The position numbers and the translations under genes are program-made. Shown piece by piece: positions 1,119 to 39,743 of a stretch of DNA of 64,000 nt. Within the stretch, counting starts at the first letter, position 1. The number at the start of each line of letters is the position of its first letter. The notes under the pieces were generated by a model that saw only the letters and a list, made by a program, of their open reading frames with translations, ran no database searches and was not told the origin of the DNA. The stretch comes from a virus. The DNA lies in IMG/VR virus record IMGVR_UViG_3300032308_002246, positions 1 to 64,000 of that record; one strand, 5' to 3'.

Positions 1119-1611
1119 GAGTGCTGTAGTTCTCTTCCTCCCACCGAGAAGCTTCTTGCGTAAAAGCTTCGATGAAGAATTGTCGGTCCCCGTTGGTAGA
1201 GAGTGTAAACGCTTGACTGCCTCCCAGGCGGATGATTGTTTTCCGAAGGACCTCGTGGACTTCCCCCACCGACTGGATTGTCTGGGTTCCGCTGTTTACG
1301 CCCTCTCCCAGCTCTCGTAGCTTGACCCAAGCTTCCCAAGCTGCAGGAGGAGCGTCCAGACGCTTTGAGAGAGCCTCCCGGCGGATTGTCCCTGGTCTGG
1401 GCATATTTGCCCTGTCAAGAGCTATGAGGCTTCGTACGGCCCTGTTTACTTCCTCCACCGTCAAGTCACCAAGGATTTGCTCCCAGGTGCTGAGTAGCTC
1501 TTTGTAACGTTTCTCTACCTGGGGGACTTGGTTGTTCCACGCGTTGAAAACATGGATGAGGATTGCCGCCACATCGTTACGAGTCATGATGTCCTCTCGC
1601 GTCGAGCTCAT
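1111..1611 (-). CDS. replicative helicase loader/inhibitor (G39P-like); probable start at 1587
   Basis: MTRNDVAAIL...WEQILGDLTVEEVNRAVRSLIA...MPRPGTIR...AWEAW resembles phage helicase-loader families. Confidence 0.6.
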   Translation of the reverse strand: MSSTREDIMTRNDVAAILIHVFNAWNNQVPQVEKRYKELLSTWEQILGDLTVEEVNRAVRSLIALDRANMPRPGTIRREALSKRLDAPPAAWEAWVKLRELGEGVNSGTQTIQSVGEVHEVLRKTIIRLGGSQAFTLSTNGDRQFFIEAFTQEASRWEEENYSTHG

Positions 1612-1751
1612 ACGCCACCGTCATCAAAAAAGACCTTGGCCGGCTGGTATGCAGTCCCGACAACCGCATACCAGCAGACTGTGCAGTCCCGACTTGAATC
1701 TGCACGTCATCTTTGGCCATCCGGTAATTTTAGCGGGGCTTAAAAGCTTTG

Positions 1752-2270
1752 TCAATCGTTTTTAGCTTCTTCTGCAGCTGCCAGGCCGGCGAATCGCTCG
1801 ACGTGCTTTGCATCACGAAGGATTAACTCAATATCGTCGTACTTTGTTCCTGTGGGATTTTCTCCCATATGCCAAGAAGACAAGCTACATCCTTGAACTG
1901 CAAGTAAACAATCAGTGATTCCGTAATCATAAATCGCAGAGCCGATAATTATCATTCGTTCTTCTGAAAGCTTCGGCCGAACTCCCCGGCTGCTTGTCTT
2001 ACACCACCGTAACCATTCATCGAAAACTTGTTGAATCTCAGCGGGGCTTACAAGCTTTGACTTCGCACGTTTTGATTTCTTTGTTTTTGTTTCCCGGGCC
2101 GGTGCCGGCTCATCAAAACCAAACAAATTTTCATTCATAAAAACATCCTGGCGCGACATTTGCAAAAAAGCAACTGCTTGTTCACAAACCCTTTGTAGTA
2201 CAAACGTTTTTACTGGTTTATCTACAGGAGCAACTAGGTCATCAACCACCGTGCCAAGTTTATTGAACAT
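1752..2270 (-). CDS. phage replication-initiator-like protein (C-terminal domain type)
   Basis: EIQQVFDEW...LSEER...YGITDCLLAVQGCSLSSWHMGEN..GTKYDDIELILRD..HVERF; lies directly upstream of the loader-like gene. Confidence 0.5.
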   Translation of the reverse strand: MFNKLGTVVDDLVAPVDKPVKTFVLQRVCEQAVAFLQMSRQDVFMNENLFGFDEPAPARETKTKKSKRAKSKLVSPAEIQQVFDEWLRWCKTSSRGVRPKLSEERMIIIGSAIYDYGITDCLLAVQGCSLSSWHMGENPTGTKYDDIELILRDAKHVERFAGLAAAEEAKND

Positions 2271-2378
2271 TGAATGAGCTACCGAAGGAGCAGCACGCGA
2301 GAGAAGAGCAACTTTTATCAGAGGAAGCTTTCTAACGTCTGAAGAAGTAAATCACTAGAACTACTTTTTAGCGGTGAA

Positions 2379-2406
2379 CCGTAGCGCGTAAATCAAATCC
2401 GGTCAA
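2379..2406 (-). promoter_or_regulatory. sigma70-type promoter
   Basis: Minus strand TTGACC-N17-TACGGT; a CAGTCCCG motif abuts the -35 at 2410-2417. Confidence 0.55.
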
Positions 2407-2442
2407 GCACGGGACTGAAATCTTTTGCTGTATGATTTACGT

Positions 2443-2538
2443 CGGCCAGGGGCCCCCTCCTGGTAAGTCGAGCAGGGTTTTCTCCCATCGGAAGCTTCTT
2501 TTCGGTAGGTAATGGTTGAGGAAACCTGCTCGGCGACT
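2443..2538 (+). ncRNA. candidate small structured RNA
   Basis: TATGAT -10 at 2431; hairpin GCCAGG..CCTGGT, then a long stem AGTCG-AGCAGG-GTTTTCTC...GAGGAAAC-CTGCTCG-CGACT; no ORF. Confidence 0.4.
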
Positions 2539-2778
2539 AACTACCAAAAAAAGACAACAGAAGCACCGAAACGATAATTAGAGCTCCAAAAAGCCGCCAT
2601 GCATCAATAACGCTCATAATTAACCCTTCATCCGGTACCGTCAGAACACATCAATAGTACGGCAAAACGCGTAAGCGGGGCTGAAAAGTACGCTTAAAAC
2701 GCATAAAAGTATTTAAAAAGCGTAATTTTTGCTTAAAAGTACCCCAGGGTGACCCAAAAGTACTAAAAGAGATACTTT

Positions 2779-2997
2779 TTAGCTTTTTACCTTCACTTTG
2801 TGGAATTCAACCCACTTCTCACCGTTGCCGATGAGCGGAGAAACCAAAACGTCGTAGTGGCCGTAGCGAAAACGCTCTTTGATGATTTTGATTCCAACAG
2901 AAAGCTCATCGATGAAGACAACGCCTTCTTTACCGATTGCGGAGTTCATGCTCGTCTGTTCGGTGCGTGAATATGTTCGTATTTCTTGCTTTTCCAT
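2779..2997 (-). CDS. hypothetical protein
   Basis: 72-aa ORF, translationally coupled to the upstream gene. Confidence 0.7.
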   Translation of the reverse strand: MEKQEIRTYSRTEQTSMNSAIGKEGVVFIDELSVGIKIIKERFRYGHYDVLVSPLIGNGEKWVEFHKVKVKS

Positions 2998-3224
2998 TAA
3001 ATGCCGCTTTCCTTTTCTAAACGAAACTTGTTGCTCGCCATTGTTGCCAAGTACTCATCAAAAGACATGTTAAAAGGGAAAATATCGCTGTTAACCATCT
3101 CAAGCTGATGCTCATCGAGCGTCTGCCAAGCATCCAGGAGCTTGTAGCCGGCAAGAACATACTCATTGAATGCAACTAAGAACTCTTGCGAAAGTTTGGG
3201 TGTTTTAATAACTGATTCTTTCAT
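2997..3224 (-). CDS. hypothetical protein (leaderless)
   Basis: 75-aa ORF; TAGGAT-N7-ATG. Confidence 0.7.
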   Translation of the reverse strand: MKESVIKTPKLSQEFLVAFNEYVLAGYKLLDAWQTLDEHQLEMVNSDIFPFNMSFDEYLATMASNKFRLEKESGI

Positions 3225-3262
3225 AATTTAAATCCTAACGACTTGCAAGGTCCAACACAACC

Positions 3263-3297
3263 AAAAAGTGGGTGCTCCTCATAAGAAGAGCACCCAC
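3263..3297 (-). terminator. intrinsic terminator
   Basis: GTGGGTGCTC-TTCTTATGAG-GAGCACCCAC-TTTTT downstream of the Xre gene. Confidence 0.75.
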
Positions 3298-3325
3298 AGA
3301 ATGAGTAAGACGACGGCTGCCTGCA

Positions 3326-3538
3326 TTAAACGCCGGCAAGCATGCTCTCTGGCTTTACTCCGAAAGCAACAGAGATGCGAAGCAACGTCTCAATATTTGG
3401 CGAGAAGTGTCCGTTCTCAATGCGGTTGATTGTCTTGCGGTCCACGCCGGCAAAATCTGCGAGCTGTTGCTGTGTAAGCCCAGCTTCGAGGCGATTCTGT
3501 TTGATGCGCGATGCAACTTTCTTGATGCGGGTTTGCAT
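3326..3538 (-). CDS. XRE-family HTH regulator
   Basis: RIKQNRLEAGLTQQQLADFAGVDRKTINRIENGHFSPNIETLLRIS. Confidence 0.92.
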   Translation of the reverse strand: MQTRIKKVASRIKQNRLEAGLTQQQLADFAGVDRKTINRIENGHFSPNIETLLRISVAFGVKPESMLAGV

Positions 3539-3568
3539 TTTTTTCTCCTTGTTTTATCCTGGCCAGGT

Positions 3569-3763
3569 TTAGCCAGAAACCTTGTTAACTTCTAAATCAA
3601 CTGTTGTTGTGTTGTAGTCTGCACGCTTTTCGTAATCAATTCCGCTCGGTTCATTTACCGCTGTGTAAATTGCAGTTTCAAGATGTGCAATTTCATCGTC
3701 GGTCATTTCACGATTGGTTGAAAAACTAATTTTAATTTTGTATTCGGCCATTAGATTTCCCAC
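3569..3763 (-). CDS. hypothetical protein
   Basis: ORF within the leftward early-gene run. Confidence 0.6.
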   Translation of the reverse strand: MGNLMAEYKIKISFSTNREMTDDEIAHLETAIYTAVNEPSGIDYEKRADYNTTTVDLEVNKVSG

Positions 3764-4101
3764 CGATTTCCTGCGTTGTATTCTGCAACGAAATATTCAG
3801 CGAAGTGACGAGCTGCGTAGATGCGTGTGAGCACATCAAAAACTTCGTACCACTTATCCGCTGACGAACCATGCTGGCGCATATATTCCTGCGCGCAAAG
3901 CCTCATGGTGTGCTGGAACAGTAATACGGTGAGGTCGATGTTGCTTTCTACTCCCTTTTCAAGATTCCGGTCGTAGTGACGTTGCTGGTTCTTGAATGCC
4001 GGCACTAAGTAGTTGTGATAACAACGACTATCGTTTTCAGCAAACAAGCAAAGCTCTACAGCTTCTTCTCGTGACTGCTCAACCGATTTAACTGATTTCA
4101 T
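3751..4101 (-). CDS. hypothetical phage protein
   Basis: AGGAG SD; ELCLFAEND..Y motif seen in phage early proteins. Confidence 0.75.
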   Translation of the reverse strand: MKSVKSVEQSREEAVELCLFAENDSRCYHNYLVPAFKNQQRHYDRNLEKGVESNIDLTVLLFQHTMRLCAQEYMRQHGSSADKWYEVFDVLTRIYAARHFAEYFVAEYNAGNRWEI

Positions 4102-4270
4102 TTGAACTCCTTTAATAACTTGTTACCAGATACTACATGTGCCCCAGCAACAATGCAACTCCAGATAATTTCTTTTGCCGTAATCCGGGGAGCGGCCAAA
4201 GCCACCCAAACCATGATTACGGTTGAAAAGCTGGTGCCGGCAAAGATTGCCCTGTGAATCCGAATATCCA

Positions 4271-4510
4271 TCACAGGTCATCCTGCATATGGTCACGGCC
4301 CACATAGATGGTGTCCTCTTCAATCTCTTCAAGCTCTAAATCGGAGAACGAGTCGCTGATGAAGTCGGAGTTCTCGTTGAGCCAGTAGCCCTGCTGGTCG
4401 ACGGTCCACTCTTCCCATTCAGCTGGAAGCTCCTTGTTCAAGCTGTAGACAATGTAGCGGTCCTGCGTCTGCAGGCGTGATTCCCGGTTTGTTACATGGT
4501 AAATAGTCAT
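4271..4510 (-). CDS. acidic hypothetical protein
   Basis: 79 aa, D/E-rich, GAGGTG SD. Confidence 0.7.
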   Translation of the reverse strand: MTIYHVTNRESRLQTQDRYIVYSLNKELPAEWEEWTVDQQGYWLNENSDFISDSFSDLELEEIEEDTIYVGRDHMQDDL

Positions 4511-4511
4511 T

Positions 4512-4802
4512 TCACACCTCTGCGAATTGTGGAATCAAGCTAATGAAACCATCATTTGGATTATCGTTATCTGTCCAGACAGCTGAGATGAAGCGGAGTC
4601 CGCATGAAACATCCCACCACTCCTGAATTTTCTCATACATCTCCCAAGGGGCGCCACGAAAAGAAACTGAATTGTTTTCTTCCGTGTAGTTCCTCTCAAA
4701 CCATGCAGCTTGTTCTGCGTCCATAGCGAGGTAAATCTTGTGACATGAATCCCAAGAGATGAGCAGTGCGCTCATTGTTGCTTTTTCAACGTCTTCCCAC
4801 AT
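4512..4802 (-). CDS. hypothetical protein
   Basis: Start MWEDVE with GGAGG SD; WDSCHKIYL...WWDVSCGLRFI. Confidence 0.7.
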   Translation of the reverse strand: MWEDVEKATMSALLISWDSCHKIYLAMDAEQAAWFERNYTEENNSVSFRGAPWEMYEKIQEWWDVSCGLRFISAVWTDNDNPNDGFISLIPQFAEV

Positions 4803-4804
4803 GA

Positions 4805-5086
4805 TTAGGCCTCCTGCATATGGTCGAGGAATGACCAGAGGTGGAATGTGTCCATGAGGGTTCCAGCCTTGACGGAGGTCTGATTGCGCCACATGACGCC
4901 AGCTGGGAGCTGTACGAGCTCATGGAGAGCTTCCTGCTCAGCGTGGAGGATTGCTTCCTTGCATGGCTTAACCATGACAGATGGAACACTTGGATAATGA
5001 TTCTGTGCGAGGTGAAGAGCAATCATTGAATCGAGGTCAAGCTTCCACCCCTCTTCAATAAGGTCTTCAATGAACTTACGGCCCAT
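4805..5086 (-). CDS. hypothetical protein
   Basis: Start MGRKF with AAGGAG SD; HLAQNHYPSVP..MVKPC.EAI motif. Confidence 0.7.
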   Translation of the reverse strand: MGRKFIEDLIEEGWKLDLDSMIALHLAQNHYPSVPSVMVKPCKEAILHAEQEALHELVQLPAGVMWRNQTSVKAGTLMDTFHLWSFLDHMQEA

Positions 5087-5440
5087 GGGCTCTCCTTTAA
5101 TAGATGTACTTGATGGGGTACATAGTAGCGGCTTACAACCAACAAGCAAACATTTTCAAACATTTTTTTTTGATTTTTTTTACCTGAAAAACTGGTCCAC
5201 GACATCGAGCGAAGCAGAATTATTCGCTGAGCTACCTGGGCCCGGCATCATCCGCCACCGTCATTAAAAATTCCCAAACCTTGCAGTCCCGCTTGGTTTA
5301 AACCGTTTCAAGATGTCGGTCGAAGTCGCAGTTCGCACGCACGCGCGCGGGCGGGGCTACAAAGCTTTTGATTTGATTCGACTAGGGCCCGGGAAATCTT
5401 CTGCTCTGCAAGAACTGCAGCTGCCAGGAAAAAAGAGAAT

Positions 5441-5483
5441 AAAAAAAGGGGGGTCGCTCACCCTTTCGGTAGAACGACCCCCC
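5441..5483 (-). terminator. intrinsic terminator of the MNRR minigene unit
   Basis: GGGGGGTCG...CGACCCCCC followed by T7. Confidence 0.8.
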
Positions 5484-5486
5484 TGC

Positions 5487-5501
5487 TTATCTTCTATTCA
5501 T
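5487..5501 (-). CDS. minigene Met-Asn-Arg-Arg-stop
   Basis: AAGGAG-CTTCT-ATG AAT AGA AGA TAA, lying between a TTGCTT...TAATGT promoter and a terminator. Confidence 0.55.
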   Translation of the reverse strand: MNRR

Positions 5502-5971
5502 AGAAGCTCCTTAGGTAGGTAGGGACACATTAGCCACAGCTCAAATAAAAAGCAACCTCAGCGAAAAGATTTTTTTGAACATATTCGCTGCGTCGGCCGA
5601 GCTGTGCAGAATCATCCGACACCGTCATCAAATTGCTCGAATAGCGCCTGGTAGTCCCGCACGGTGTTATTTGGAAGACTTTGACCAGATGGCAGCGCGC
5701 AAGTGCGTGCGGGGCTGAATAGCTCCAAACTGGGTTTTGTTTGATTGTTTATAGCTCGTGCGGAAAAAAGTCAACGTGTTCTTATTTGCAAGAGTTGAAA
5801 ACTAGGACCTAAAGTTATTGGTGATTTAGCGCTAAATACAATTCTGGTTCCGTTTTTCCCGGGTCATCCGCCGCCGTCGACGTGTTGCAGAAGAAAACAG
5901 CGCAACGCGGTCCCGACTGTTGTTTGAGGGCTTGCGACACCCCAGAAGGGTGGAGCGGGGCTAAATAGCTT

Positions 5972-6175
5972 CTAGAACAAGCTTCGTGCGTATGGACCCC
6001 GCAACGCTGAGAGTTTTTTGCTTCGTTCGGGTTCAGGTAAAAGATTTATCTGCTCAAGGCGTTTCTGCCGCTTACGTTCCCGTTCGTATTCACGCCTACG
6101 AAGCTTTTTAGAGAATGTATTCTCCCTGTTCTCACGCTGCCAGGCTTTTTGTTTCTCTTTATCCTTGTAAGGCAT
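5972..6175 (-). CDS. basic hypothetical protein
   Basis: GGAGG SD; MPYKDKEKQKAWQRE N terminus common in phage proteins. Confidence 0.6.
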   Translation of the reverse strand: MPYKDKEKQKAWQRENRENTFSKKLRRREYERERKRQKRLEQINLLPEPERSKKLSALRGPYARSLF

Positions 6176-6200
6176 GCATCCTCCGATGTAGAGTGTTTGA

Positions 6201-6398
6201 ATGTCAGGTTTAGTCCCTTGTAACTTTTGTGGCAACCTTGTTGACACTACAAGCAAATCAACGATGCGTCTAGTGAGAGCATGGTTACCTTGCGGCAGTA
6301 TTTCCGGGGCAAAGAGTATTGATGAGCTTTTTCTATACGCACATAAAATTTGCGTAGAAGTAAAACATCATGAGATACCCATGGACAAACTGTTTTAG
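6201..6398 (+). CDS. small Zn-finger-like protein (leaderless)
   Basis: TAGAGT-N6-ATG; CNFC...HKIC. Confidence 0.6.
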   Translation: MSGLVPCNFCGNLVDTTSKSTMRLVRAWLPCGSISGAKSIDELFLYAHKICVEVKHHEIPMDKLF

Positions 6399-6443
6399 TT
6401 GAACACGCAGAAAATAATCAACAGTACGACGATTGCGTACAAC

Positions 6444-6944
6444 CTAAACCTCAGTCCGGACGAACGGGCAAGGAGCCTCGATGTTGAATACCTCTTCATA
6501 TAGCGCCCTCCCTGATGCCCATGTACCCCACGACAGTGGGTCTCCTGTCCATTCACCGTCAGAACTTACCTGCAGCAATTTGCCGTAGATTACTTTTGCT
6601 CGAATAAGGATAGCTGTAACTACCGCATCGTACGGTTTCTGCGCTGTCTTGCAAAAGTCAAAGTAGAACAAATCGTCTTTGCGCCACTCAGGTTGCACAG
6701 GATTTGCTTCCCACCGGAATGTCTCGTGCGACAAATCACCGTTAGGGCCGTCTTCACCATTGAAAGCAAAATATGCTTCGGTAAATTCAGGCGATGTGCC
6801 CACCTCTCCGAAAGGTCCTGCTAGGCGAATGCCGATGGACTGTGCGTGCTCACAAATAGCTTTTGCATCTAGTGCAAGCCGCCCAAACATTTCTGCTGTT
6901 CCATGATTTCCTACAGGCCTATCCGTGTAATGCGTGTAACCCAT
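6444..6944 (-). CDS. conserved phage hypothetical protein
   Basis: MGYTHY...FNG...HETF...FDFCKTAQKPYDAVVTAIL...VSSDG family motifs. Confidence 0.8.
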   Translation of the reverse strand: MGYTHYTDRPVGNHGTAEMFGRLALDAKAICEHAQSIGIRLAGPFGEVGTSPEFTEAYFAFNGEDGPNGDLSHETFRWEANPVQPEWRKDDLFYFDFCKTAQKPYDAVVTAILIRAKVIYGKLLQVSSDGEWTGDPLSWGTWASGRALYEEVFNIEAPCPFVRTEV

Positions 6945-7229
6945 TTACTTCTCCCTCGTCATACTCATAATTCCCCATGAAGCAGAAAGCGGCAAGCCGT
7001 CCCTGCCGGCAACAAGCATCATTTTTGCTCGCCATGCCGGGTGATTGTACATACCTTCGCTCGTTGTGTCTTTCCCAACAACGACAACATGCTTATCGCC
7101 ACTGAGACGAACTCCGCTGTCTTTCCTGTAAGCCGAAGCTTCACCAGTCGAGCCAACAATAAGGACCTTCTCAAGAGGACAAGCTTCGCCCGTGTACTTG
7201 TTGACCACATATCCGATGTTTGTACTCAT
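6945..7229 (-). CDS. hypothetical protein
   Basis: Coupled ORF in operon. Confidence 0.65.
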   Translation of the reverse strand: MSTNIGYVVNKYTGEACPLEKVLIVGSTGEASAYRKDSGVRLSGDKHVVVVGKDTTSEGMYNHPAWRAKMMLVAGRDGLPLSASWGIMSMTREK

Positions 7230-7495
7230 GATGCGTTCTCCAAGACATGGATAGAAAGCTCACCAGAACGAAGCCAATCAAAAGCTTCGGTCCGAACCCA
7301 CTCATTGCACAACGCGGCGAAGATATCTGCAGTGCCTGGTTCTCCGATTTCTCCAATCATGCTTTTTGCCGTCTCGATGTCCCACATGCGAATTTGTGCA
7401 AATGGTTTCAGCGGAGCTTTGGTGTGCAAGATGTCGCAGTACGGACCCCCATTCCAGACGAACTTGAACATGCTTACCGTCAGTGTGAGCCTCAT
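7226..7495 (-). CDS. hypothetical protein
   Basis: 4-nt overlaps with both neighbours. Confidence 0.65.
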   Translation of the reverse strand: MRLTLTVSMFKFVWNGGPYCDILHTKAPLKPFAQIRMWDIETAKSMIGEIGEPGTADIFAALCNEWVRTEAFDWLRSGELSIHVLENAS

Positions 7496-7968
7496 TTTGT
7501 TACCTCAGCCGCAGCAATGCTTTCCGCTGCAAGGATGTTTGCCATCACAAGACGAATTGCATCAGCAAGACTTCCACGACCTGCAAGGTCGGTAAGAATT
7601 TCTCCGTCGTCGTCAAGGCTCATCACCGAAGCAATGCGGCATGTCCGGTCAATAACACTCAACATACGCACGCGACGGCGTTCTGGGTGCTGGCTAGGGG
7701 CAATTTCATCGTCGCCTTCTTCCCGAATAGGAGCTGCCCAACCAGAGGTTTCAACTCCAAGAAACTCAAAGTCGTGAAGTGTTTCTTCGTCAGTCTCTTT
7801 GGCGATGTTCTCCAGACCGACGTAAACGTCACCGTAGACACCAAGTGTCACCAGCTGCCCGTCACGGCTCTTGAAAATATGGCATGTTGACTTCGTAAGA
7901 CCCGGCCAGTTCGCCAAGTCATTGAAAATTTCTGTTGCAGCTTCTGTGAGCTCTAAATTGCTTTTCAT
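7492..7968 (-). CDS. hypothetical actinophage-type protein
   Basis: GWAAP...APSQHPERRRVR motif; AAGGA SD. Confidence 0.75.
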   Translation of the reverse strand: MKSNLELTEAATEIFNDLANWPGLTKSTCHIFKSRDGQLVTLGVYGDVYVGLENIAKETDEETLHDFEFLGVETSGWAAPIREEGDDEIAPSQHPERRRVRMLSVIDRTCRIASVMSLDDDGEILTDLAGRGSLADAIRLVMANILAAESIAAAEVTK

Positions 7969-8001
7969 GATGTTTCCTTTTTTTAGTGGGTGATTTTTAT
8001 T

Positions 8002-8172
8002 CTAGTCAATAAGTACGTAGTTATCACCGTTTCCCTCGGTGAGACCGGTGTAAATGATTACCTGACCCTCGTTGTCGTGCTCGATGTCTGCTGTAGGCAG
8101 AAACTCGTACAACGCCTTACGGAACTTCTTTCCTGAAATAACTGTTTTCTTATGAAGTGGTTTCTTAGCCAT
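8002..8172 (-). CDS. small hypothetical protein (56 aa, not in the ORF track)
   Basis: MAKKPLHKK...FLPTADIEHDNEGQVIIYTGL; GGGGA SD; fills the gap in the operon. Confidence 0.65.
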   Translation of the reverse strand: MAKKPLHKKTVISGKKFRKALYEFLPTADIEHDNEGQVIIYTGLTEGNGDNYVLID

Positions 8173-8174
8173 TG

Positions 8175-8384
8175 CTATTCCCCTTTGATGAATTCGCAGA
8201 TTGATTTTTTAGGCATTTTGCGGTCGAGAACTTCGGTGCCAGTTTCCAAGCCGATGTAGCTGAGCAGATAGGTGCTGCCGTTGATGCGTGTCGGAGCTTT
8301 GATTTCTGTTACCCGATAGTTCTCATGAAAAGCCCAAGTAAAAATGTCTCCTACTTTGAGCTGCTCAATCCGCTTTGTTTGCAT
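8175..8384 (-). CDS. hypothetical protein (leaderless start MQTKR)
   Basis: TTGCAA-N18-TAATGT-N7-ATG; IEQLKVGD motif. Confidence 0.7.
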   Translation of the reverse strand: MQTKRIEQLKVGDIFTWAFHENYRVTEIKAPTRINGSTYLLSYIGLETGTEVLDRKMPKKSICEFIKGE

Positions 8385-8559
8385 GCGTTGAACATTAGGG
8401 GAAATACTTGCGCCTTGCAACCCACAAGGGCTGTGACTTTTGTCATCCGCCACCGTCACTTTTTGTTTTCTTTCCTGGAGCCGGCCGTGCGAATTGCAGT
8501 CCCGACTGGGGTGCGTGAGGTTTCCCGGCAGAAGGGCAGGGGGAAGAAGAAGGCGGGGC

Positions 8560-8835
8560 TTACGAACGCTGATGCAACTTGACGTTGCGACCATTGATGT
8601 CGTCATCCCAAAAAGAATGCACTAATTCCATCTCAACAGTGCTTGAAGTGTGCTTTTCTTTATTACTGCACGACGCTTGCATTGCAGGAACGCCAATAGT
8701 AACCTCATACCCACAGTTAGGGCAACGCCATAATTCCGTACGGGACTGTGGTTTACTTTTCTTGCGTGTCATAGTCATTTCATTTTGCATCATTTTGCTC
8801 CATCCTGGCGAAAGAGATACTAATAGGCAGGACAA
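8560..8835 (-). CDS. small Zn-ribbon protein
   Basis: WRCPNCG...CSNKEKH; the true start is probably near 8770-8793. Confidence 0.5.
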   Translation of the reverse strand: MSCLLVSLSPGWSKMMQNEMTMTRKKSKPQSRTELWRCPNCGYEVTIGVPAMQASCSNKEKHTSSTVEMELVHSFWDDDINGRNVKLHQRS

Positions 8836-8855: not shown

Positions 8856-11800
8856 TAGTCCCGCCAAATGGACTCTAATCACAATCCCCGCTCAATTGCA
8901 ACCTCGCTCTGGTTCCGCTTCGCAGCCCAGATTACGCCAGACTTCGTCGTGGCTTCACCTGGGTTCCTCGCTACACCAAGGCTCGGTCTTATCTCGCTTT
9001 TTCGACATTCACGCTCCACCTGCACCACCGCTACAAAACGCTTTCCGCTTCGCTACAAGCAGTTTTTCCGCTCAGGTGCTGGTTGCGCGATGAAATGTCT
9101 CAATACTCGAAACATTGATTGCCTGTAATTGCTTTTTAGTCCCGATGCCCCCATGACAACCTCCGTGCTCATTTGGTGACATCGCAAGGCTCCGCAGGCT
9201 CGTTTCGTATGCACTCAAATCCGCTGCCGACAAGCGGCGCGTCTTCAGTGCACCGATGCGTTATCACGCGTCGGCAAGTACTCCACTTGCCTTCTACGCC
9301 GTGCTCAGTAACCAATCGCACTACCAGCGACATTCATGAACTCACGACCGCCCGCTACAGTCCCCGGACTTCGTTCCTCGTCACGGGGAACTTCCGCTAT
9401 CGGTCGTTCCGTTCAATGAAGTGTCTTCCTTGCTTCATTTGATAATTAGTCCCGACTCTCATAACCAAGACCCGGCGATTTACTCATTAACGCATTCTCT
9501 CGGAAACACCGCTCGTGCTCCGCTCGTGTTCGCTTGAAGAGACTTCGGCGCTCCACGAAGCTACGTCACGAGCTCCGTTTCCTGCGCGAAATGCGCACGT
9601 TTATTAGTCCCGATTGATTATTGAATGACAATCCCCGCTTGTTCTTTTTCCCACAAACAGCCTCGCTACTCTCGCAATCCTGCCTCTCCGCCATAGCGAC
9701 GGACCACTTCAATCGCTTCAGTTTGTTTCCCGGGTTGGTGAGTTCTTCGAACCACCAAACTCCATATCGAATCCTGCTTCGATATGTAGTCAAGCCCGTA
9801 CAACAAACATCGCTCATTCGTGTTCCTAGCCATGGCTCCGATTCAGGAACTGCTCGCTCCGCAGGCTTCTTGTGTGAAAAGAGAAACATCGCTACTCACT
9901 AGTCCCGTAATAAGTAATAACACAACTCCGGTAGACGCACTTTCTGTTTCTATCCAACCGCCCGCTTCGCCCGTGCACGCAAGGGCATGCTGCCCACGCA
10001 CGCACGAGGCTACGCTTGGCTACTGGATAGCACCAGAAGAGTGCTCTTATTCAGACTCTTAAGCCCCGTAGATAATTGAATAACAATCACCGCTCGTGTT
10101 CCGAGTACTCCACATTCAACGCTACGTTCGCAATTCTGGCTCTCCGACATCACTGCGGACACTTCAGTCGTTTCAGTTTGCTTGTCGGGTTGGTGAGTTC
10201 TTCGAACCACCAAGCTCATACCAATGGATTGGTATTTCGCCAAGCCCGAACGCAAACATCACTCCTTCGTGTACCTGGCGATGTCTCCAATCCAGAAAAT
10301 GCTTCACTACGCTTTTGAATGTTACGTACTCAGAAACTACATCGCTAAGTTGATAGTCCCGTAAAAAGTAACAAGACAACTACCGTTACTCTCCCTCACA
10401 CTGGTGATGCTCCGCTCGGTGCTCGGTTTCGGAGTAATCCGAATTCCTCACACCGAAACTACGCAGCACCCGTCGCTCGGTCGAGATAACTAACCACTAC
10501 TAATAAAACTTTATAGTCCCGTGCAGATTTATCTAACAACTTTGGCACCAGCGAATTCCCACGGAGCGAGGCATCGAAATCACAAATGATTTCGTGCTCG
10601 CTGAGCGGGGGGCCGTGGGAAGTACGCTTCCTCATCCCGGATGACAGGTATAACTGTTTAGGTTTTTAGCCCCGTACGGACATTGAATGAATAGTTCCCG
10701 CTTATCCATATACGAAATCTTTACCGAGTTCAACGCTACGGATGTTTTCGTCCGCTGCGCAGCCTCAACAACCCTCCGCTTTTGAACCCGGTAACCGTCG
10801 ATTCATAGTTTCGCTGCGCTTCACTAGAATCGCCTAGATTTCTTATCTGTCTAAGCTGTTTGAAAGAAAACATTGATTCAAGCACTAGTTAGTCCCGAGA
10901 CTTCAATAGATGATTATCTTTGATTGCGACATCCCGGATATCCACCTCGTTAGAGCGCTACTCCTGCATTTCTCTGCTCCAGAAGTTCGGTCGCACGGTC
11001 GCTTCGCTTATGCTAGCGCCGAATTGCTGTCGCACTTCGTTGCTTCGCATTTCCCTACGCATACCGCACTCCTCCTTCTGGCTACGAGAAATGACAGTAT
11101 CCGCTTCCCTAACTCGTTGGACAATCCTGCCCGGTTGTTAGTCCCGTATAAAAATACTCACTCACCGCATACATTTTCTTTTCGACCTACGTTCGCTTTG
11201 CGTTTCCTTCGTACCTCGGAACAGCACGCTCACTCCGAGTCGAACGAAAATGCAATGCTTGCTCGCTCGCAAAAACTAGTCCCGTAAAGACAAACATAAA
11301 GCTTTACTTCGCCTCCTCGCTTGCCAGGCAGACGCCCGGCGTCGTTGTCTCATACTTCGCCAACGCACGCTGGGCGGCTGCTCTGGCTTCGTTCGGAATG
11401 CTCATTGTTGTTAGTTATTAGTCCCGTAATGATTTATCTAACAACTCCCGGCAGTGCCGTTTTTCATGGTTTATTAAAAAATACTCCCTCTCTTTTTTTC
11501 TTTTTACCGCTCCAAAAATCGTCGCTTTCGCTCGTGCCTCGCTCAAAAAAGACAAAAAAGAGCCTCTTCCGTATTTTTTAAAAACCAACAGTCGCTCCAC
11601 TCCTTTTCAAAACAGACACATGCCTAACCATGTGGTTATTAGTCCCGTTTTTTATTGTTGAATAAAAGTCCACGCCTACTCGCTTACCTGCGGATGCTTC
11701 CGGCTGTGTCCGCTCTCTTGAGCTACCACAAGCCTTCAGCAGCCGCCCGGTTGCGCTTCGTAAAGCTGTTTGTTGAACATTGCTTATAAAGCATTCTCTA

Positions 11801-12520
11801 TAGTCCCGCAAGCTTCGCTTGCTACAAACATCACAACTTTTGCTCGTACTTCTTTCCTCGCTCAGCGAACGCTCGAAATTCCAGAGTGCTCATTATTTCG
11901 CTCTTAAATCTTTTAAGTACACGCGCTCGTATCTCGCCTCGAAAGACTCACCGCTTGAATGGTCTCTAGTCCCGAAGTTTTACTATTTACATTCAAGCTT
12001 CTCGTCTTCCAACGCTCGCATTCTCACTTGTTCCCTTAAAATCTTTAATCGCAAAATAACTGCGCTTCTGGAACCTTCTCGCTCCCGCTCCGCTCAAAAA
12101 GAAAGTAACTTCGCTGTCTGCTCCCGGCAGTAATTAGTCCCGTGTAAATTTTCATCACAATTACCGCATTGCATACAGTCGAACTGTTGCTTCGCTGTTA
12201 GGGCTTTTGACGCTTCGCTTGCACGTGCGACGTGCACAACGCCCTAAACAGCTGCGCAGCATTCCGACTTCGTACGCAAATGCTTACCCGGTTTCTAGTC
12301 CCGAATATATTTAGATAAAAGTCCCCGGAGAAATTGCCTGCTCGTATTCCGCGAAAATACTCCCTCCATTTTTTCATTTCACGCTATCGCTCTCAGGCTT
12401 ACGGCCTTTGGCCTACAGCCATTCGGAAATAAAATAAATGGAACCTTCCGTATTCTCTTGGAATACCAGTCGCTGCGCTCCTTCTGCGCTCCAATTTACT
12501 CCTGGTAGTTGTTAGTCCCG
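8856..12520. repeat. non-coding array: 19 direct TAG(T/C)CCCG repeats flanking 18 structured cassettes
   Basis: Motif starts at 8856, 9137, 9447, 9605, 9900, 10061(AAGCCCCG), 10354, 10514, 10667(TAGCCCCG), 10890, 11139, 11277, 11419, 11640, 11801, 11967, 12135, 12296, 12513. Intervening units examined are imperfect palindromes, and there are no credible ORFs. Confidence 0.9.
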
Positions 12521-12522
12521 TA

Positions 12523-12741
12523 TTAATTTTGTGGACTAAACGAACAAATCATCTTTCCATCTTTGAGCTCAATGACTTCACATCCAAGGTCATCAAGAAT
12601 CATCGCCGCAACATCTTTGTAGTCTGCAAGTTGTTGTGCAAGCTCTTTGTCCGATAGGCTCTCATCAAAAGCAATATCAAACAGCGAGTCGGCAATCGCA
12701 TTGGTTAACGAAAGCCTTATTTCAAAAGGGTTATTTGCCAT
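12523..12741 (-). CDS. acidic hypothetical protein (leaderless), at the head of the array
   Basis: TAGGCT-N6-ATG; the stop lies 2 nt from the terminal array repeat. Confidence 0.75.
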   Translation of the reverse strand: MANNPFEIRLSLTNAIADSLFDIAFDESLSDKELAQQLADYKDVAAMILDDLGCEVIELKDGKMICSFSPQN

Positions 12742-12811
12742 TGACAGAGCCTAGCATGGGTGATAAGCTGCTTTTGGCGATAAATCAACTGAACACAAGG
12801 AGAATACGAAC

Positions 12812-13291
12812 ATGTCATCAGCGCCAGTAACAATAACCGGAAACCTCACGGCGGACCCAGAAATCCGTTACTTTGACTCAGGAGCAGGAAAGCTTTCATT
12901 CTCTGTTGCGGTCAATAACTTCTGGACCGACGCAAAAGGTGAGAAGCAAGAAAAGACCTCTTACTTCAATGTCATCGCATGGCGCAATCTTGCAGAAGAT
13001 GCCGTGCGTGTTCTTGAAAAGGGAATTCGTGTAACAGTCACGGGTCGCCTTGAGCAAGAGACGTGGGACGACAAGGAATCAGGTAAGAAGCGCTCAGCTG
13101 TGAACATCCTCGCTGATGAAATTGGCGTATCTGTTCGCAACATTGAGACATTGCAGCGCAAGGCAAAGGCAGAGAATGCTTCTGGCAACCCTGTCAACGC
13201 TCGTCCTGCACAGAAAGCACCAGCACGAGCAGGCGCTCGTCCAGCTACAACCCGCAATGACTTTGATTCATTCGGGGAAGAGCCTTTCTGA
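12812..13291 (+). CDS. ssb: single-stranded DNA-binding protein
   Basis: VTITGNLTADPEIRY...VIAWRNLAE...KGIRVTVTGRLEQ; acidic EEPF tail. Confidence 0.97.
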   Translation: MSSAPVTITGNLTADPEIRYFDSGAGKLSFSVAVNNFWTDAKGEKQEKTSYFNVIAWRNLAEDAVRVLEKGIRVTVTGRLEQETWDDKESGKKRSAVNILADEIGVSVRNIETLQRKAKAENASGNPVNARPAQKAPARAGARPATTRNDFDSFGEEPF

Positions 13292-14679
13292 GCCTGACAT
13301 TTGGCAGCCTCTTCGCCGGAGTCGGCGGTTTCGACCTTGGGTTTGAAGCCGCCGACTGGCAATGCCGGTGGCAAGTTGAATGGGACCCTGCGTGCCAGCA
13401 AATACTTAAAAAGCATTGGCCTGACATCCCAAAATATCTTGATGTTAGAGATGTAAAAGGCAATGAAATAGAACCAGTTGACTGCATTAACTTTGGCAGC
13501 CCGTGCCAGGACCTATCCGTGGCCGGTGTCCGAAAAGGTCTCTCTGGTGAGCGCTCTGGTTTATTCCATGAAGCAATAAGAATTATCAAGGAGATGCGTG
13601 ATGCAACAAATGGACAATACCCACGACTCGCAATCTGGGAAAACGTTCCCGGAGCACTTACTTCCAACAAGGGTGCTGACTTTGGGGTCGTCCTCGATGA
13701 AATGGCCAAATCAGGGTGCGTGGCGCTTGACTGGGCAATCCTTGATGCTCAATACTACGGAATCGCCCAGCGACGGCGCCGCATCTTCGTGTGTGCTACA
13801 TACGATATTGGTGCCGCAGAGCGAAGTCCCCTCCCGTTACTACCTGTCCAAGAGGGCGTGCGAAGGCATTCTCAGAAGGGCCGACAGGAGAAACAAAAAG
13901 CTGCCGGAAAAGCTTCGTCAAGCACTGGAAGCAGTAGCGAACAGGGAGTCTTAGCATTTGAGAACAGTGGCTTTGCCAAATGGCAAGAAACAGACAAAGC
14001 TCTAACATTGCGAGCTCGTGACGCAAAAGGCCCTGGAACGATTGTCACAAACGAAGAAGTTTATTCTTTTGACACCCAATTCGGCTCAAATGCAAATGTG
14101 TTCACTGACCATTCACCAACACTCAAAGCTACACAGCAGTCACCAAGTGTTGCCTATGAGAACGATGATTCACCAATAGTGTTTCACCCGCATCGACAAG
14201 ATGGAGTTCGCTTACAAGGCGACACCATCAACACATTGACTGCTTTTATGGGAACCGGTGGACTAAACACACCAATGGTCGCACAAAACGAAGAACTCAA
14301 TGACGGAATAGCAATGACTCTCCGTAGTGGTGGTGACGGTGGAGTGCCATCAAGCAGGGGTGAAAACTTGGTCATTGATGCAATTGCTTACGATGAATAC
14401 AACGACAAGCTTGTTGAAGGTGGAATTCATCATGCAATTAGAGCTGGCACAAAACAGTCAACCGGGGTGTTGCAAAACATGGTGGTTAGACGCCTCTTGC
14501 CAAAAGAATGTGAGATTTTGATGGGATGGCCCGTGGACCACACCAGATGGCGTGCTGACGGAAAAGAACAGCCCGATACAGCGAGGTACAAGCAAACCGG
14601 AAACGGAGTAGCCGCACCTGTAGCTGAATGGCTTGGAAAAATATTCAAAGGACTATTGGATGATTCAGCAAGCAAGTAA
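13288..14679 (+). CDS. C5 cytosine DNA methyltransferase (CTG start)
   Basis: Motif I SLFAGVGGFDLG lies in frame upstream of the track start; also motif IV GSPCQDLS, VI WENVPG, VIII QRRRR, IX RRLLPKECEILMGWP and X YKQTGNGV. Confidence 0.93.
   Translation: MSLTFGSLFAGVGGFDLGFEAADWQCRWQVEWDPACQQILKKHWPDIPKYLDVRDVKGNEIEPVDCINFGSPCQDLSVAGVRKGLSGERSGLFHEAIRIIKEMRDATNGQYPRLAIWENVPGALTSNKGADFGVVLDEMAKSGCVALDWAILDAQYYGIAQRRRRIFVCATYDIGAAERSPLPLLPVQEGVRRHSQKGRQEKQKAAGKASSSTGSSSEQGVLAFENSGFAKWQETDKALTLRARDAKGPGTIVTNEEVYSFDTQFGSNANVFTDHSPTLKATQQSPSVAYENDDSPIVFHPHRQDGVRLQGDTINTLTAFMGTGGLNTPMVAQNEELNDGIAMTLRSGGDGGVPSSRGENLVIDAIAYDEYNDKLVEGGIHHAIRAGTKQSTGVLQNMVVRRLLPKECEILMGWPVDHTRWRADGKEQPDTARYKQTGNGVAAPVAEWLGKIFKGLLDDSASK
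13598..13954 (+). CDS. nested out-of-frame ORF within the methyltransferase (beta-subunit-like)
   Basis: AAGGAG SD at 13588; ESPSDGAASS...VPSRYYLSKRACEGILRRADRRNKKLPEKLRQAL. Confidence 0.65.
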   Translation: MMQQMDNTHDSQSGKTFPEHLLPTRVLTLGSSSMKWPNQGAWRLTGQSLMLNTTESPSDGAASSCVLHTILVPQSEVPSRYYLSKRACEGILRRADRRNKKLPEKLRQALEAVANRES

Positions 14680-17293: not shown

Positions 17294-17520
17294 CGCCTGC
17301 GACGCAACATGATTTTGCGTTCGTCTTCAGTCTTTCCCCCGTAGATGCCAAACTCAATTGAATTATCAAGAGCATACTTGAGGCACTCTCCACGGACAAG
17401 GCAAATTCCACAATACCCAAGAGCCTCTAAGCGCTGTTTGCGATTGCGCGGGAAGAATGTGAGCGTATTTGCACTAATGCACGCACGTGCCGAACGCCAG
17501 CTGTCGCCTGAGTAAATCAT
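17290..17520 (-). CDS. whiB: WhiB-family Fe-S transcription factor
   Basis: W...ARC...FFP...CGICLVRGECLKYAL....FGIYGGKTEDER. Confidence 0.93.
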   Translation of the reverse strand: MIYSGDSWRSARACISANTLTFFPRNRKQRLEALGYCGICLVRGECLKYALDNSIEFGIYGGKTEDERKIMLRRRR

Positions 17521-21221: not shown

Positions 21222-21575
21222 ATGACAATGGAAGAAAAACAGAATCAGCAGTTCAATGGCAGACACGAGACGCTGAATCTTGAAGGTCCTCCAGATTTCC
21301 CAAAAGGTGGAGCTTGTGTCTCTTATCCGACTGATTGGTTTTTCCCTGAACCACCACTAGGCAGAGATGAGCTTGAAAAGATAAACAACGCAAAGAGCAT
21401 TTGCTCCAAGTGCTCCATACAGATGGAATGTCTCACTTACGCAATGGAATGGGAGCCATTTGGAATATGGGGAGGAATGACGGAGAGCCAGCGTAAATTC
21501 CTCCGCCAGAAGATGAATTTTAAAACCCGACGATATGATGAAACAATCCGACTACAACAGTTAATGAGTACATGA
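21222..21575 (+). CDS. whiB: WhiB-family transcription factor
   Basis: AC...TDWFFP...AKSICSKC....ECLTYA....FGIWGGMTESQR. Confidence 0.93.
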   Translation: MTMEEKQNQQFNGRHETLNLEGPPDFPKGGACVSYPTDWFFPEPPLGRDELEKINNAKSICSKCSIQMECLTYAMEWEPFGIWGGMTESQRKFLRQKMNFKTRRYDETIRLQQLMST

Positions 21576-39454: not shown

Positions 39455-39743
39455 CATTGACCTGTTAAGCGCAAACACTGAGGTCCCTAGCTTTGATGGT
39501 GCATGCCGGGGAATGCCTACCGACTGGTGGTTCCCAGAAAAAGGCGCAGGCGGAGAAGACAAGTTGAACAACGAAAAAGCTGTTCAGATTTGTAAATCAT
39601 GCAGCTCGCAAACAGAGTGCCTTGACTTCTCGTTAACATTTATGAATCTACAGGGGATTTGGGGTGGGCTCTCACACAGGCAGAGGCAACGTGAGAGGAC
39701 AAAACGTGGGGTAAAGGTAATCCAGGATAGGGTCAAACATTGA
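39447..39743 (+). CDS. whiB: WhiB-family transcription factor
   Basis: ACRGMPTDWWFP...ICKSC....ECLDFSL....GIWGGLS.RQR. Confidence 0.92.
   Translation: MHDIDLLSANTEVPSFDGACRGMPTDWWFPEKGAGGEDKLNNEKAVQICKSCSSQTECLDFSLTFMNLQGIWGGLSHRQRQRERTKRGVKVIQDRVKH

What the first reader, a model, noticed from the sequence alone, without database searches (positions are those of the whole stretch)
8890..12500. Cassettes carry GC-GNA-GC mini-hairpins on the minus strand, pointing to folded single-stranded DNA
Seen: the plus strand is full of GCTTCGC, GCTACGC, GCTGCGC and GCTCCGC, which read GCGAAGC, GCGTAGC, GCGCAGC and GCGGAGC on the minus strand. They often sit opposite each other in a stem, forming a four-way junction (GC-TTC-GC facing GC-TGC-GC in the 12135 unit). 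Internal loops are pyrimidine-rich on plus and purine-rich on minus. Established: d(GCGAAGC)-type GNA triloops are exceptionally stable in DNA but not RNA, and occur in the phage G4 origin and N4 virion-RNAP promoters. Inference: the functional molecule may be minus-strand ssDNA or an extruded cruciform, which would fit the adjacent ssb. Wobble polarity is mixed, so RNA is not excluded.
Basis: partly seen in the sequence, partly recalled or inferred. Interest (0 to 1): 0.8.

Follow-up and report, generated by a model that had tools for sequence, protein, structure and literature searches.

The report
Purine-loop hairpin array in actinophage
A 3.7-kb non-coding stretch of an uncultured freshwater phage holds 18 tandem long hairpins, folded from one strand only and held together by unusual G-A pairs; they are most likely small structured RNAs of an undescribed kind, though a single-stranded-DNA role is not excluded.

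Summary
GCGNAGC occurs 18 times on the minus strand of the array (4.9/kb, against 0.12/kb elsewhere and 2 on the other strand). Copies often face each other, and the loops are purine-rich on minus.

Two sub-claims fail:
- The facing copies do not form four-way junctions. Their closing pairs covary across the stem, so they are 3x3 GNA/GNA internal loops in a continuous helix. Only 5-7 copies are true terminal triloops.
- Wobble polarity is not mixed. G-U outnumbers A-C about 3:1, and G-U makes up 11% of pairs.

The minus strand is therefore the folded strand. Each unit is a non-coding rod of 140-320 nt built from short helices and C-G(N)A-G modules. Each is preceded by a bipartite, promoter-like motif (TTGT-N14-CGGGACTA) that points the same way as the flanking genes.

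I favour 18 small structured RNAs of a new family (about 0.5). Against that, the loop repertoire looks like DNA: GNA triloops and no GNRA or UNCG. Transcription is barely documented. Folded single-stranded DNA stays a live rival (about 0.25).

No Rfam family, cultured phage or paper matches.

The parts
8856..12520 (-). Whole array: 18 non-coding units bounded by 19 core motifs (CGGGACTA on minus; variants at 10060-10067 and 10667-10674)
   Evidence: the core is confined to 5.3-12.5 kb of the 174-kb genome. GCTNCGC starts (plus) at 8917, 9047, 9189, 9517, 9856, 9964, 10009, 10409, 10754, 10813, 11001, 11042, 11812, 12087, 12189, 12212, 12251, 12472.
12296..12520 (-). Unit 1 (225 nt), first after the upstream gene
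   Evidence: Minus fold -68.5 kcal/mol, plus fold -53.9. 9 distinct orthologues. An RNA-library contig covers 12324-12474.
12135..12303 (-). GCGCAGC faces GCGAAGC as a 3x3 loop; a third GCGAAGC lies near the apex.
   Evidence: Alignment A1: 97.9% of cells paired, 7 pairs with double changes, 0 of 500 shuffles reach this. Cross-stem closing is 100% paired; the mini-hairpin closing is broken in 3 of 7. An RNA-library contig covers 12154-12304.
11967..12142 (-). Unit 3 (176 nt)
11801..11974 (-). Unit 4 (174 nt), with a terminal GC[GAA]GC triloop next to the core
11640..11808 (-). Unit 5 (169 nt), with two GNA/GNA loops
11419..11647 (-). Unit 6 (229 nt), with an A/U-rich long stem; paralogue of unit 1
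11277..11426 (-). Unit 7 (150 nt)
11139..11284 (-). Unit 8 (146 nt), a helix of alternating 2-bp steps and tandem G-A loops
10890..11146 (-). Unit 9 (257 nt)
   Evidence: Minus -98.2, plus -70.4
10667..10897 (-). Unit 10 (231 nt)
10514..10674 (-). Unit 11 (161 nt). Other lake populations carry 543-545 extra bases at its boundary (10500-10515).
10354..10521 (-). Unit 12 (168 nt)
   Evidence: Minus -59.2, plus -37.5. The closing pair G:C changes to A:U.
10059..10361 (-). Unit 13 (303 nt), paralogue of unit 15
9900..10066 (-). Unit 14 (167 nt)
9605..9907 (-). Unit 15 (303 nt), with a terminal GNA triloop whose outer pair covaries (U:A to C:G)
9447..9612 (-). Unit 16 (166 nt)
9137..9454 (-). Unit 17 (318 nt). 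Its plus-sense open frame is a composition artefact.
8856..9144 (-). Unit 18 (289 nt), with four GNA modules
12523..12741 (-). 72-aa acidic ORF directly upstream of the array. It looks leaderless (TAGGCT, 6 nt, then ATG).
   Evidence: Conserved at both array-bearing lineages, 52% identity in L018/L019. No family found.
8560..8835 (-). Small zinc-ribbon-like ORF directly downstream of the array
   Evidence: Conserved in L019 at 31% identity. Only weak zinc-ribbon leads.
12812..13291 (+). ssb, transcribed divergently from the array side
   Evidence: PF00436, E 1.4e-27

Best explanation
The array is a battery of 18 small non-coding RNA genes read from the minus strand of an actinobacterial phage. 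Each unit has three parts:
- A bipartite promoter-like element: a -35-like TTGTnA or GGRAnT box, an AT-rich spacer of fixed length, and the invariant CGGGACTA followed by a conserved A four bases on.
- A tail of 3-30 nt.
- One rod-like hairpin of 85-256 nt that ends where the next promoter-like element begins.

The rods are made of 2-8-bp helices. These are joined by symmetric purine loops of one design, C-G(N)A-G on both strands. With N absent this is a tandem sheared G-A. With N present it is a 3x3 G-A/N-N/A-G loop. Some tips carry C[GNA]G triloops. GCGNAGC is the most frequent spelling of this module.

Shown: the strand-specific structure, its covariation, the non-coding nature, the conserved boundary motif, and conservation in two phage lineages.

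Inferred: transcription from each boundary, and the function. I propose that the RNAs are made early and act as abundant, nuclease-resistant decoys or scaffolds for a protein that recognises the repeated sheared G-A module. That protein could be a host RNA-binding or RNA-cleaving factor, or RNA polymerase.
For: - Every unit folds better as minus than as plus: 17 of 17 with RNA parameters, mean -75 against -59 kcal/mol.
- Covariation in unit 12135 gives 7 pairs with double changes, and 0 of 500 shuffles reach the observed score. Nine of 15 GNA/GNA loops have compensatory changes in cross-stem closing pairs.
- G-U makes up 10.9% of pairs. Of 96 G-U sites, 39 are invariant, 22 swap with Watson-Crick pairs and only 2 swap with A-C. 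G-U against A-C is 105 to 32.
- The G and A of GNA are kept in 197 of 212 cells, while N varies.
- Boundary motif: the core and the TTGT box are invariant in orthologues, and the spacer varies in sequence but not in length. The hairpin abuts the next box.
- Orientation matches the flanking minus-strand genes.
- In distant relatives the same core sits 10-13 nt before the ATG of the orthologous small gene.
- The units are not coding. Open frames differ between orthologues, and variable columns number 17/14/16 and 27/31/32 by codon position.
- A lake metatranscriptome holds contigs at 12154-12304 and 12324-12474, next to contigs in the 72-aa ORF and ssb.
- A diverged lineage (SSB 72% identical) has the same architecture.
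Against: - Transcription is hardly documented. There are two 151-nt contigs at depth 2, with no strand information, and DNA carry-over in the library is not excluded.
- The -10-like part lacks the usual final T. No sigma-70-type promoter or intrinsic terminator is predicted in the array.
- No phage sigma factor or RNA polymerase was found.
- Terminal loops are not those of typical stable RNAs. GNRA or UNCG account for 0 of 14, 0 of 8 and 1 of 15 tetraloops. C[GNA]G triloops are 6 of 13, 8 of 18 and 8 of 10. That repertoire is extra stable in DNA and much less so in RNA (PMC13037366).
- No partner protein was found. TROVE, RNase III and RtcB are absent.
- The units show no complementarity to the rest of the phage genome.
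- No Rfam family matches.
Confidence: 0.5

Rival explanations
1. Folded single-stranded DNA. The purine-rich minus strand becomes single-stranded, either as lagging-strand template of a leftward fork or as the strand displaced by transcription (an R-loop). It then folds into hairpins locked by GNA triloops and GNA/GNA zipper loops that SSB cannot melt. These mark sites for the phage primase-helicase or another ssDNA-specific enzyme. The boundary motif is then a protein-binding site, or the promoter that opens the duplex.
For: - The loop repertoire looks like DNA: C[GNA]G triloops enriched about sixfold over composition, and no GNRA or UNCG.
- d(GCGAAGC) melts at 76.5 C and r(GCGAAAGC) at 39 C. 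d(GCGAAGC) also forms a duplex with crossed G-A pairs. Such motifs occur at the G4 origin, ssiA and N4 promoters and bind SSB poorly (PMC13037366).
- The favoured mismatches (G-G, G-A, G-T) are the most stable DNA mismatches (my knowledge). Their complements on plus are the least stable, which gives maximal strand asymmetry.
- With DNA parameters the minus strand is more stable in 15 of 17 units.
- The array lies next to ssb and 9 kb from a primase-helicase, on the side where GC skew is negative.
Against: - No known system uses 18 tandem hairpins of 85-256 nt as ssDNA signals.
- 11% G-T pairs, many invariant, would be costly in DNA.
- No enzyme of the known ssDNA-hairpin systems is encoded: no tyrosine recombinase, reverse transcriptase, Y1 HUH transposase or T7/N4-type RNA polymerase.
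- This is a capsid-packaged dsDNA phage (HK97-type capsid).
- Stable hairpins on a lagging-strand template would hinder replication.
- If the RNA folds as well as the displaced strand does, R-loops are disfavoured.
Confidence: 0.25
2. Cruciforms with four-way junctions in double-stranded DNA. Facing GCGNAGC copies each fold back as 2-bp mini-hairpins, and the inverted repeats extrude under supercoiling.
For: Facing copies exist, for example at 12189 and 12251. Both strands have negative folding z-scores of about -3.5.
Against: - Closing pairs covary across the stem, not within a motif. All four mini-hairpin pairs are possible in only 14 of 83 instances, against 65 of 83 for cross-stem pairs.
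- In the cited unit the mini-hairpin pair is A-C in 3 of 7 orthologues.
- The plus-strand arm would carry A-C and pyrimidine-pyrimidine mismatches, and is no more stable than shuffled sequence.
- The repeats are highly imperfect: helices average 4 bp.
Confidence: 0.03
3. A function of duplex DNA sequence without folding. Examples are a cluster of binding sites or decoy promoters that titrate a host factor, or an oriented array of Chi-like AGCG(G) words that blunts a host RecBCD/AddAB-type nuclease.
For: There are 19 copies of a bipartite motif with fixed spacing. AGCG occurs 77 times in one orientation. By my knowledge, AGCGG is the Bacillus subtilis Chi and GAAGCGG that of Staphylococcus aureus.
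Against: - It does not explain compensatory substitutions or the G-U bias.
- The base after AGCG is not fixed: A 33, G 23.
- AGCG is accounted for structurally as loop A, then a GC step, then loop G.
- No Chi sequence is known for Actinobacteria (my knowledge).
Confidence: 0.07

Closest known systems
DNA mini-hairpins d(GCGNAGC), as in N4 virion-RNA-polymerase promoters and the G4/ssiA priming sites (review PMC13037366)
   Same: The same heptamer, strand-specific, with C-G closure and a sheared G-A. A few copies do cap helices as triloops. The array is close to ssb.
   Different: Most copies are halves of 3x3 internal loops inside rods of 85-256 nt. There are 18 tandem units rather than 1-3 short hairpins. 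No N4-type polymerase was found. A promoter-like motif lies outside the hairpin.
Tandem sheared G-A and GA-closed 3x3 internal loops of structured RNAs (C-GA-G context; rRNA, the non-canonical stem of kink-turns)
   Same: A pyrimidine-G(N)A-purine context on both strands, symmetric purine loops, and a freely varying middle base.
   Different: The density is unusual: about 19 3x3 and 20 purine-only 2x2 loops in 3.7 kb. There is no 3-nt bulge as in kink-turns. They are combined with GNA triloops rather than GNRA.
Rod-like regulatory RNAs that bind RNA polymerase (6S RNA; Ms1 of Actinobacteria)
   Same: Imperfect hairpin rods of 150-300 nt in an actinobacterial setting, and a plausible decoy function.
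   Different: There is no large central bubble and no Rfam match. There are 18 different units in tandem, and they are phage-encoded.
Integron attC cassette arrays
   Same: Tandem cassettes, hairpins that fold from one strand, structure conserved more than sequence, a short core at every boundary, and whole-unit gain and loss.
   Different: The cassettes hold no ORFs. There are no inverted core sites within a unit. The genome has no tyrosine recombinase. Unit order is collinear between relatives.
Single-strand promoters and ssi signals (Frpo) in plasmid leading regions next to ssb
   Same: Long imperfect hairpins of one strand close to ssb.
   Different: There the promoter boxes are formed inside the hairpin of incoming ssDNA. 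Here the boxes lie between hairpins and have no complementary partner. The element is also a dsDNA phage.
Phage tRNA or Y-RNA gene clusters
   Same: Tandem small structured RNA genes in a large phage genome.
   Different: There is no tRNA-like module, no Ro60 gene, each unit has its own promoter-like element, and no known family matches.

Membership tests
DNA mini-hairpin (GCGNAGC) | The heptamer GCGNAGC is present and strand-specific | tested here: met
   18 on minus, 2 on plus, 0.12/kb outside
DNA mini-hairpin (GCGNAGC) | The heptamer folds on itself: G1-C7 and C2-G6 pairs with a G3-A5 sheared pair | tested here: not met
   For the facing copies, cross-stem pairs covary and mini-hairpin pairs break. 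It is met only for 5-7 terminal triloops.
DNA mini-hairpin (GCGNAGC) | The molecule is DNA | not testable with these tools
   Energies favour the minus strand with both parameter sets
N4-type hairpin promoter | A stem of 5-7 bp with a 3-nt purine-centred loop on the template strand | tested here: inconclusive
   C[GNA]G triloops exist, but N is any base and most GNA copies are internal
N4-type hairpin promoter | A virion-packaged T7-like RNA polymerase that reads it | tested here: not met
   No PF00940 match, though the control rang nowhere. The giant 4588-aa protein matches only ClpC-N, NUDIX and zeta domains.
Integron attC array | An IntI tyrosine recombinase and inverted core sites flanking each hairpin | tested here: not met
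   No PF00589 match. There is no reverse-complement copy of the core inside the array.
Retron, IS200/IS605 or REP ssDNA hairpins | A reverse transcriptase or a Y1 HUH enzyme | tested here: not met
   No PF00078 or PF01797 match
Any Rfam family (including 6S, Y RNA, tRNA) | A covariance-model match | tested here: not met
   No match in the array at the gathering score or at E up to 5
Structured non-coding RNA gene | A conserved secondary structure with compensatory changes and G-U tolerance on one strand | tested here: met
Structured non-coding RNA gene | Transcribed, with defined ends | tested here: inconclusive
   Two unstranded RNA-library contigs at depth 2. The boundary motif is promoter-like, but the consensus scan predicts no promoter or terminator.
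VIPR vrRNA arrays | Tandem 5-nt GGY/NN repeats with a Vipr (RAMP) protein | tested here: not met
   The AGCG spacing is irregular, with peaks at 5-6, 11 and 17. The description of the repeats comes from the abstract.

The most novel reading that the evidence does not exclude
The cassettes work as single-stranded DNA. Firing of each boundary promoter, or passage of the fork, frees the purine-rich minus strand. That strand snaps into SSB-resistant GNA-zipper hairpins, creating a multi-copy landing zone for the phage primase-helicase. This would be a hairpin-locked, R-loop-type replication-initiation region, of a kind not described for any dsDNA phage.
Probability: 0.15. Interest if true: 0.85.

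Novelty: new variant of a known kind. Interest (0 to 1): 0.62.

Why it matters
About 2% of a 174-kb phage genome goes to 18-22 tandem structured non-coding units. These are kept by compensatory evolution in two lineages, and parts of the stretch are held by lake, lagoon and freshwater metagenomes from ten studies.

If the units are RNAs, they form an undescribed family. Its architecture is a rod of short helices joined by C-G(N)A-G modules, which suggests a dedicated protein partner and a new way for phages of abundant freshwater Actinobacteria to take over or evade their hosts.

If they are ssDNA, they would be the first large natural array of the mini-hairpin and zipper motifs that are so far known mainly from oligonucleotide chemistry and a few origins and promoters.

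Either way the module is a compact design rule for one-strand-only folding: it is stable on the purine strand and unstable on its complement.

Tried and rejected
- Protein coding. Long plus-sense open frames in units 8856 and 9137 are in different frames in orthologues, and substitutions are even over codon positions.
- Antisense regulators of phage genes. There is no match above chance to the rest of the genome.
- Known RNA families. None match.
- Cultured-phage relatives of the array. None were found by near or distant DNA search.
The repeat logic differs.
- A pattern scan of IMG/VR for two cores 135-165 nt apart. It gave mostly single chance hits and two unrelated tandem repeats (L091, L138). 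True arrays occur only in this lineage.
- Other SSB relatives (L016-L026, L028-L059) have no array.
- Partner-protein searches. TROVE, RNase III and RtcB were not found. Atlas look-ups of the two flanking small ORFs gave only weak zinc-ribbon leads.
- RNA evidence. The one RNA run had no cover over 16 of the 18 units. These are contigs, so that is no finding.
- Using the 'three-box' elements as proof that the core is a promoter. The box downstream of the core opens only 5-32-aa frames in 4 of 5 cases, so it does not mark ordinary gene starts.
- The consensus promoter and terminator scan found nothing above shuffles.
Full report
**Context**

The window is the first 64 kb of a complete 174-kb virus record with terminal repeats. 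The evidence for the host and habitat is:
- an HK97-type capsid protein about 48% identical to those of Gordonia and Brevibacterium phages;
- four WhiB genes;
- no sigma factor and no T7-type RNA polymerase;
- relatives only in freshwater metagenomes.

It is therefore an uncultured freshwater actinophage. Genes left of 12741 run on the minus strand. ssb (12812-13291) and the replication genes run on plus.

**The array**

Between the 72-aa ORF (12523-12741, minus) and a small zinc-ribbon-like ORF (8560-8835, minus) lie 19 copies of TAGTCCCG on plus, which is CGGGACTA on minus. They delimit 18 units of 138-318 nt. In the whole genome the core occurs only between 5.3 and 12.5 kb.

**Check of the observation**

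- GCTNCGC on plus occurs 18 times in the array (4.9/kb) and 7 times in the remaining 60 kb (0.12/kb). The complementary form occurs twice. Dinucleotide shuffles give 2.3 +/- 1.5, with a maximum of 7.
- The heptamer is the most frequent spelling of a broader strand-specific word, AGCG: 77 on minus, 9 on plus, about 10 expected.
- Predicted loops are purine-rich on minus and pyrimidine-rich on plus.

**Which strand folds**

- All units are more stable as minus than as plus: 17 of 17 with RNA parameters and 15 of 17 with DNA parameters.
- I built consensus structures from Watson-Crick pairs only, on alignments of orthologous units from related contigs (72-98% identity). Deviations are G-U 68 against A-C 22. 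In 1x1 mismatches they are G-U 37 against A-C 10.
- G-U makes up 10.9% of pairs. Of 96 G-U sites, 39 are invariant, 22 alternate with Watson-Crick pairs and 2 alternate with A-C.

The minus strand carries the structure.

For the cited unit, 97.9% of cells pair and seven pairs show double changes. No shuffle of 500 reaches the observed score, and slid registers pair at 45% or less.

**Geometry of the GNA motif**

In the window's units, 19 of 24 predicted 3x3 internal loops have G-N-A on both strands. There are none on the plus strand or in shuffles. About 20 of 29 2x2 loops are purine-only.

The typical state of AGCG is loop A, then a paired GC step, then loop G. The common module is therefore C-G(N)A-G on both strands: tandem sheared G-A pairs, with or without a middle mismatch.

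I tested whether facing heptamers fold back as mini-hairpins (a four-way junction) or pair across the stem, using the orthologues.
- In 83 loop instances, all four cross-stem closing pairs are canonical in 65. Both inner mini-hairpin pairs are possible in 35, and all four in 14.
- Nine of 15 loops show a compensatory double change in a cross-stem pair, for example G:C to A:U with C-A in the mini-hairpin register.
- In unit 12135 the cross-stem model is 100% paired, with C:G changed to U:A in three sequences. The mini-hairpin model has A-C in those three.

The four-way junction is rejected. Five to seven copies are genuine terminal C[GNA]G triloops, and one has a covarying stem. G and A are kept in 197 of 212 cells while N varies freely.

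**Unit anatomy**

Upstream of each core (minus sense) lie an AT-rich spacer and a TTGTnA or GGRAnT box at fixed distance. In orthologues the boxes are invariant, and the spacer varies in sequence but not in length. An A four bases after the core is about 90% conserved.

The hairpin starts 3-30 nt after the core and ends where the next box begins. Helices average 4 bp and the longest per unit is 5-13 bp.

This geometry fits a sigma-A-type promoter (18-19-nt spacer) or an ECF-type promoter (16-19 nt). However, the -10-like part lacks the usual last T, and no consensus promoter or terminator is predicted.

In distant relatives without arrays, the core lies 10-13 nt before the ATG of the orthologue of the 72-aa gene. 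The TA of the core there starts a TAnnnT hexamer.

**Not coding, not antisense, not known**

- Open frames are not conserved in frame, and substitutions show no codon periodicity.
- There is no complementarity to the rest of the genome.
- No Rfam match was found.
- No similar DNA exists in 50,697 phage records.
- I found no paper describing such arrays.

**Distribution**

- The close clade (SSB 95-100% identical) has 17-22 units, with whole-unit gains and losses. One is a 543-545-nt insertion at a boundary.
- A lineage with SSB 72% identical (L018/L019) has a longer array with the same core, the same GNA/GNA loops and triloops, and the same flanking ORFs.
- Other relatives lack arrays.

**RNA or DNA?**

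For RNA:
- G-U frequency and behaviour;
- a promoter-like element before each unit in the right orientation;
- the same orientation as the flanking genes;
- four contigs of one lake metatranscriptome that cluster at 12154-13253, two of them inside units (weak, unstranded, depth 2);
- no enzyme of any known ssDNA-hairpin system in the genome.

For DNA:
- the terminal-loop repertoire. GNRA and UNCG are at chance level, and C[GNA]G triloops are about sixfold enriched in three arrays;
- the mini-hairpin literature. d(GCGAAGC) melts at 76.5 C and r(GCGAAGC's tetraloop analogue r(GCGAAAGC)) at 39 C. d(GCGAAGC) also crystallises as a duplex with crossed G-A pairs, which is the internal-loop geometry seen here. 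Such motifs occur at the G4 origin, at ssiA and in N4 promoters, and bind SSB poorly (PMC13037366).

I weigh priors and the points above to RNA about 0.5, ssDNA about 0.25, cruciform 0.03, and duplex-sequence functions 0.07. The rest is unassigned.

**Mechanism I commit to**

The units are early, independently or serially transcribed minus-sense rods. Their many sheared G-A modules give stability without long perfect duplex. They present a repeated two-fold-symmetric surface to one protein partner, so the array acts as a high-copy decoy or scaffold.

The structure, strand, modules and conservation are shown. Transcription, partner and purpose are inferred.

Noticed in passing
window 1608-8570 (elements near 1624, 5264, 5628, 5881, 8459): 'Three-box' elements. 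On minus, a CGGGAC core followed by a -10-like hexamer, then after 21-39 nt a conserved box (ATGACGGTGGCGGATGA type). That box opens only 5-32-aa frames in 4 of 5 cases. Further upstream lies an inverted copy of the core (AGCCCCGC). This may be another small RNA or a leader-peptide element that uses the same promoter-like core.
   Followed up: partly
window 50217-63998 (minus): A giant open frame of at least 4588 aa next to the major capsid gene. It has ClpC N-terminal-like, NUDIX and zeta-toxin/AAA domains near its C-terminus. The first roughly 3600 residues match nothing. It shows no similarity to virion RNA polymerases.
   Followed up: partly
window 17314-17499, 21309-21497, 39498-39689; genome 173115-173306: Four WhiB-like genes in one phage genome. 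They point to an actinobacterial host and to phage control of host sigma-A-dependent transcription.
   Followed up: no
window 10500-10515: Contigs from two other lake metagenomes carry 543-545 extra bases exactly at a unit boundary. Related contigs hold 17-22 units. Whole cassettes are gained and lost at the core motif.
   Followed up: partly
window 12739-12811: Overlapping divergent promoters. TTGACA, 17 nt, then TAAGCT sits before ssb. On the other strand, TAGGCT sits 6 nt before the ATG of the 72-aa ORF, which suggests a leaderless mRNA.
   Followed up: no
window 8868-9128 and 9173-9442 (plus): Open frames of 86 and 89 aa inside array units are artefacts of the pyrimidine-rich plus strand. 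Gene callers may annotate them as hypothetical proteins.
   Followed up: yes
window 13519-14679: A C5 cytosine DNA methyltransferase lies directly after ssb. Any link to the GC-rich words of the array was not examined.
   Followed up: no
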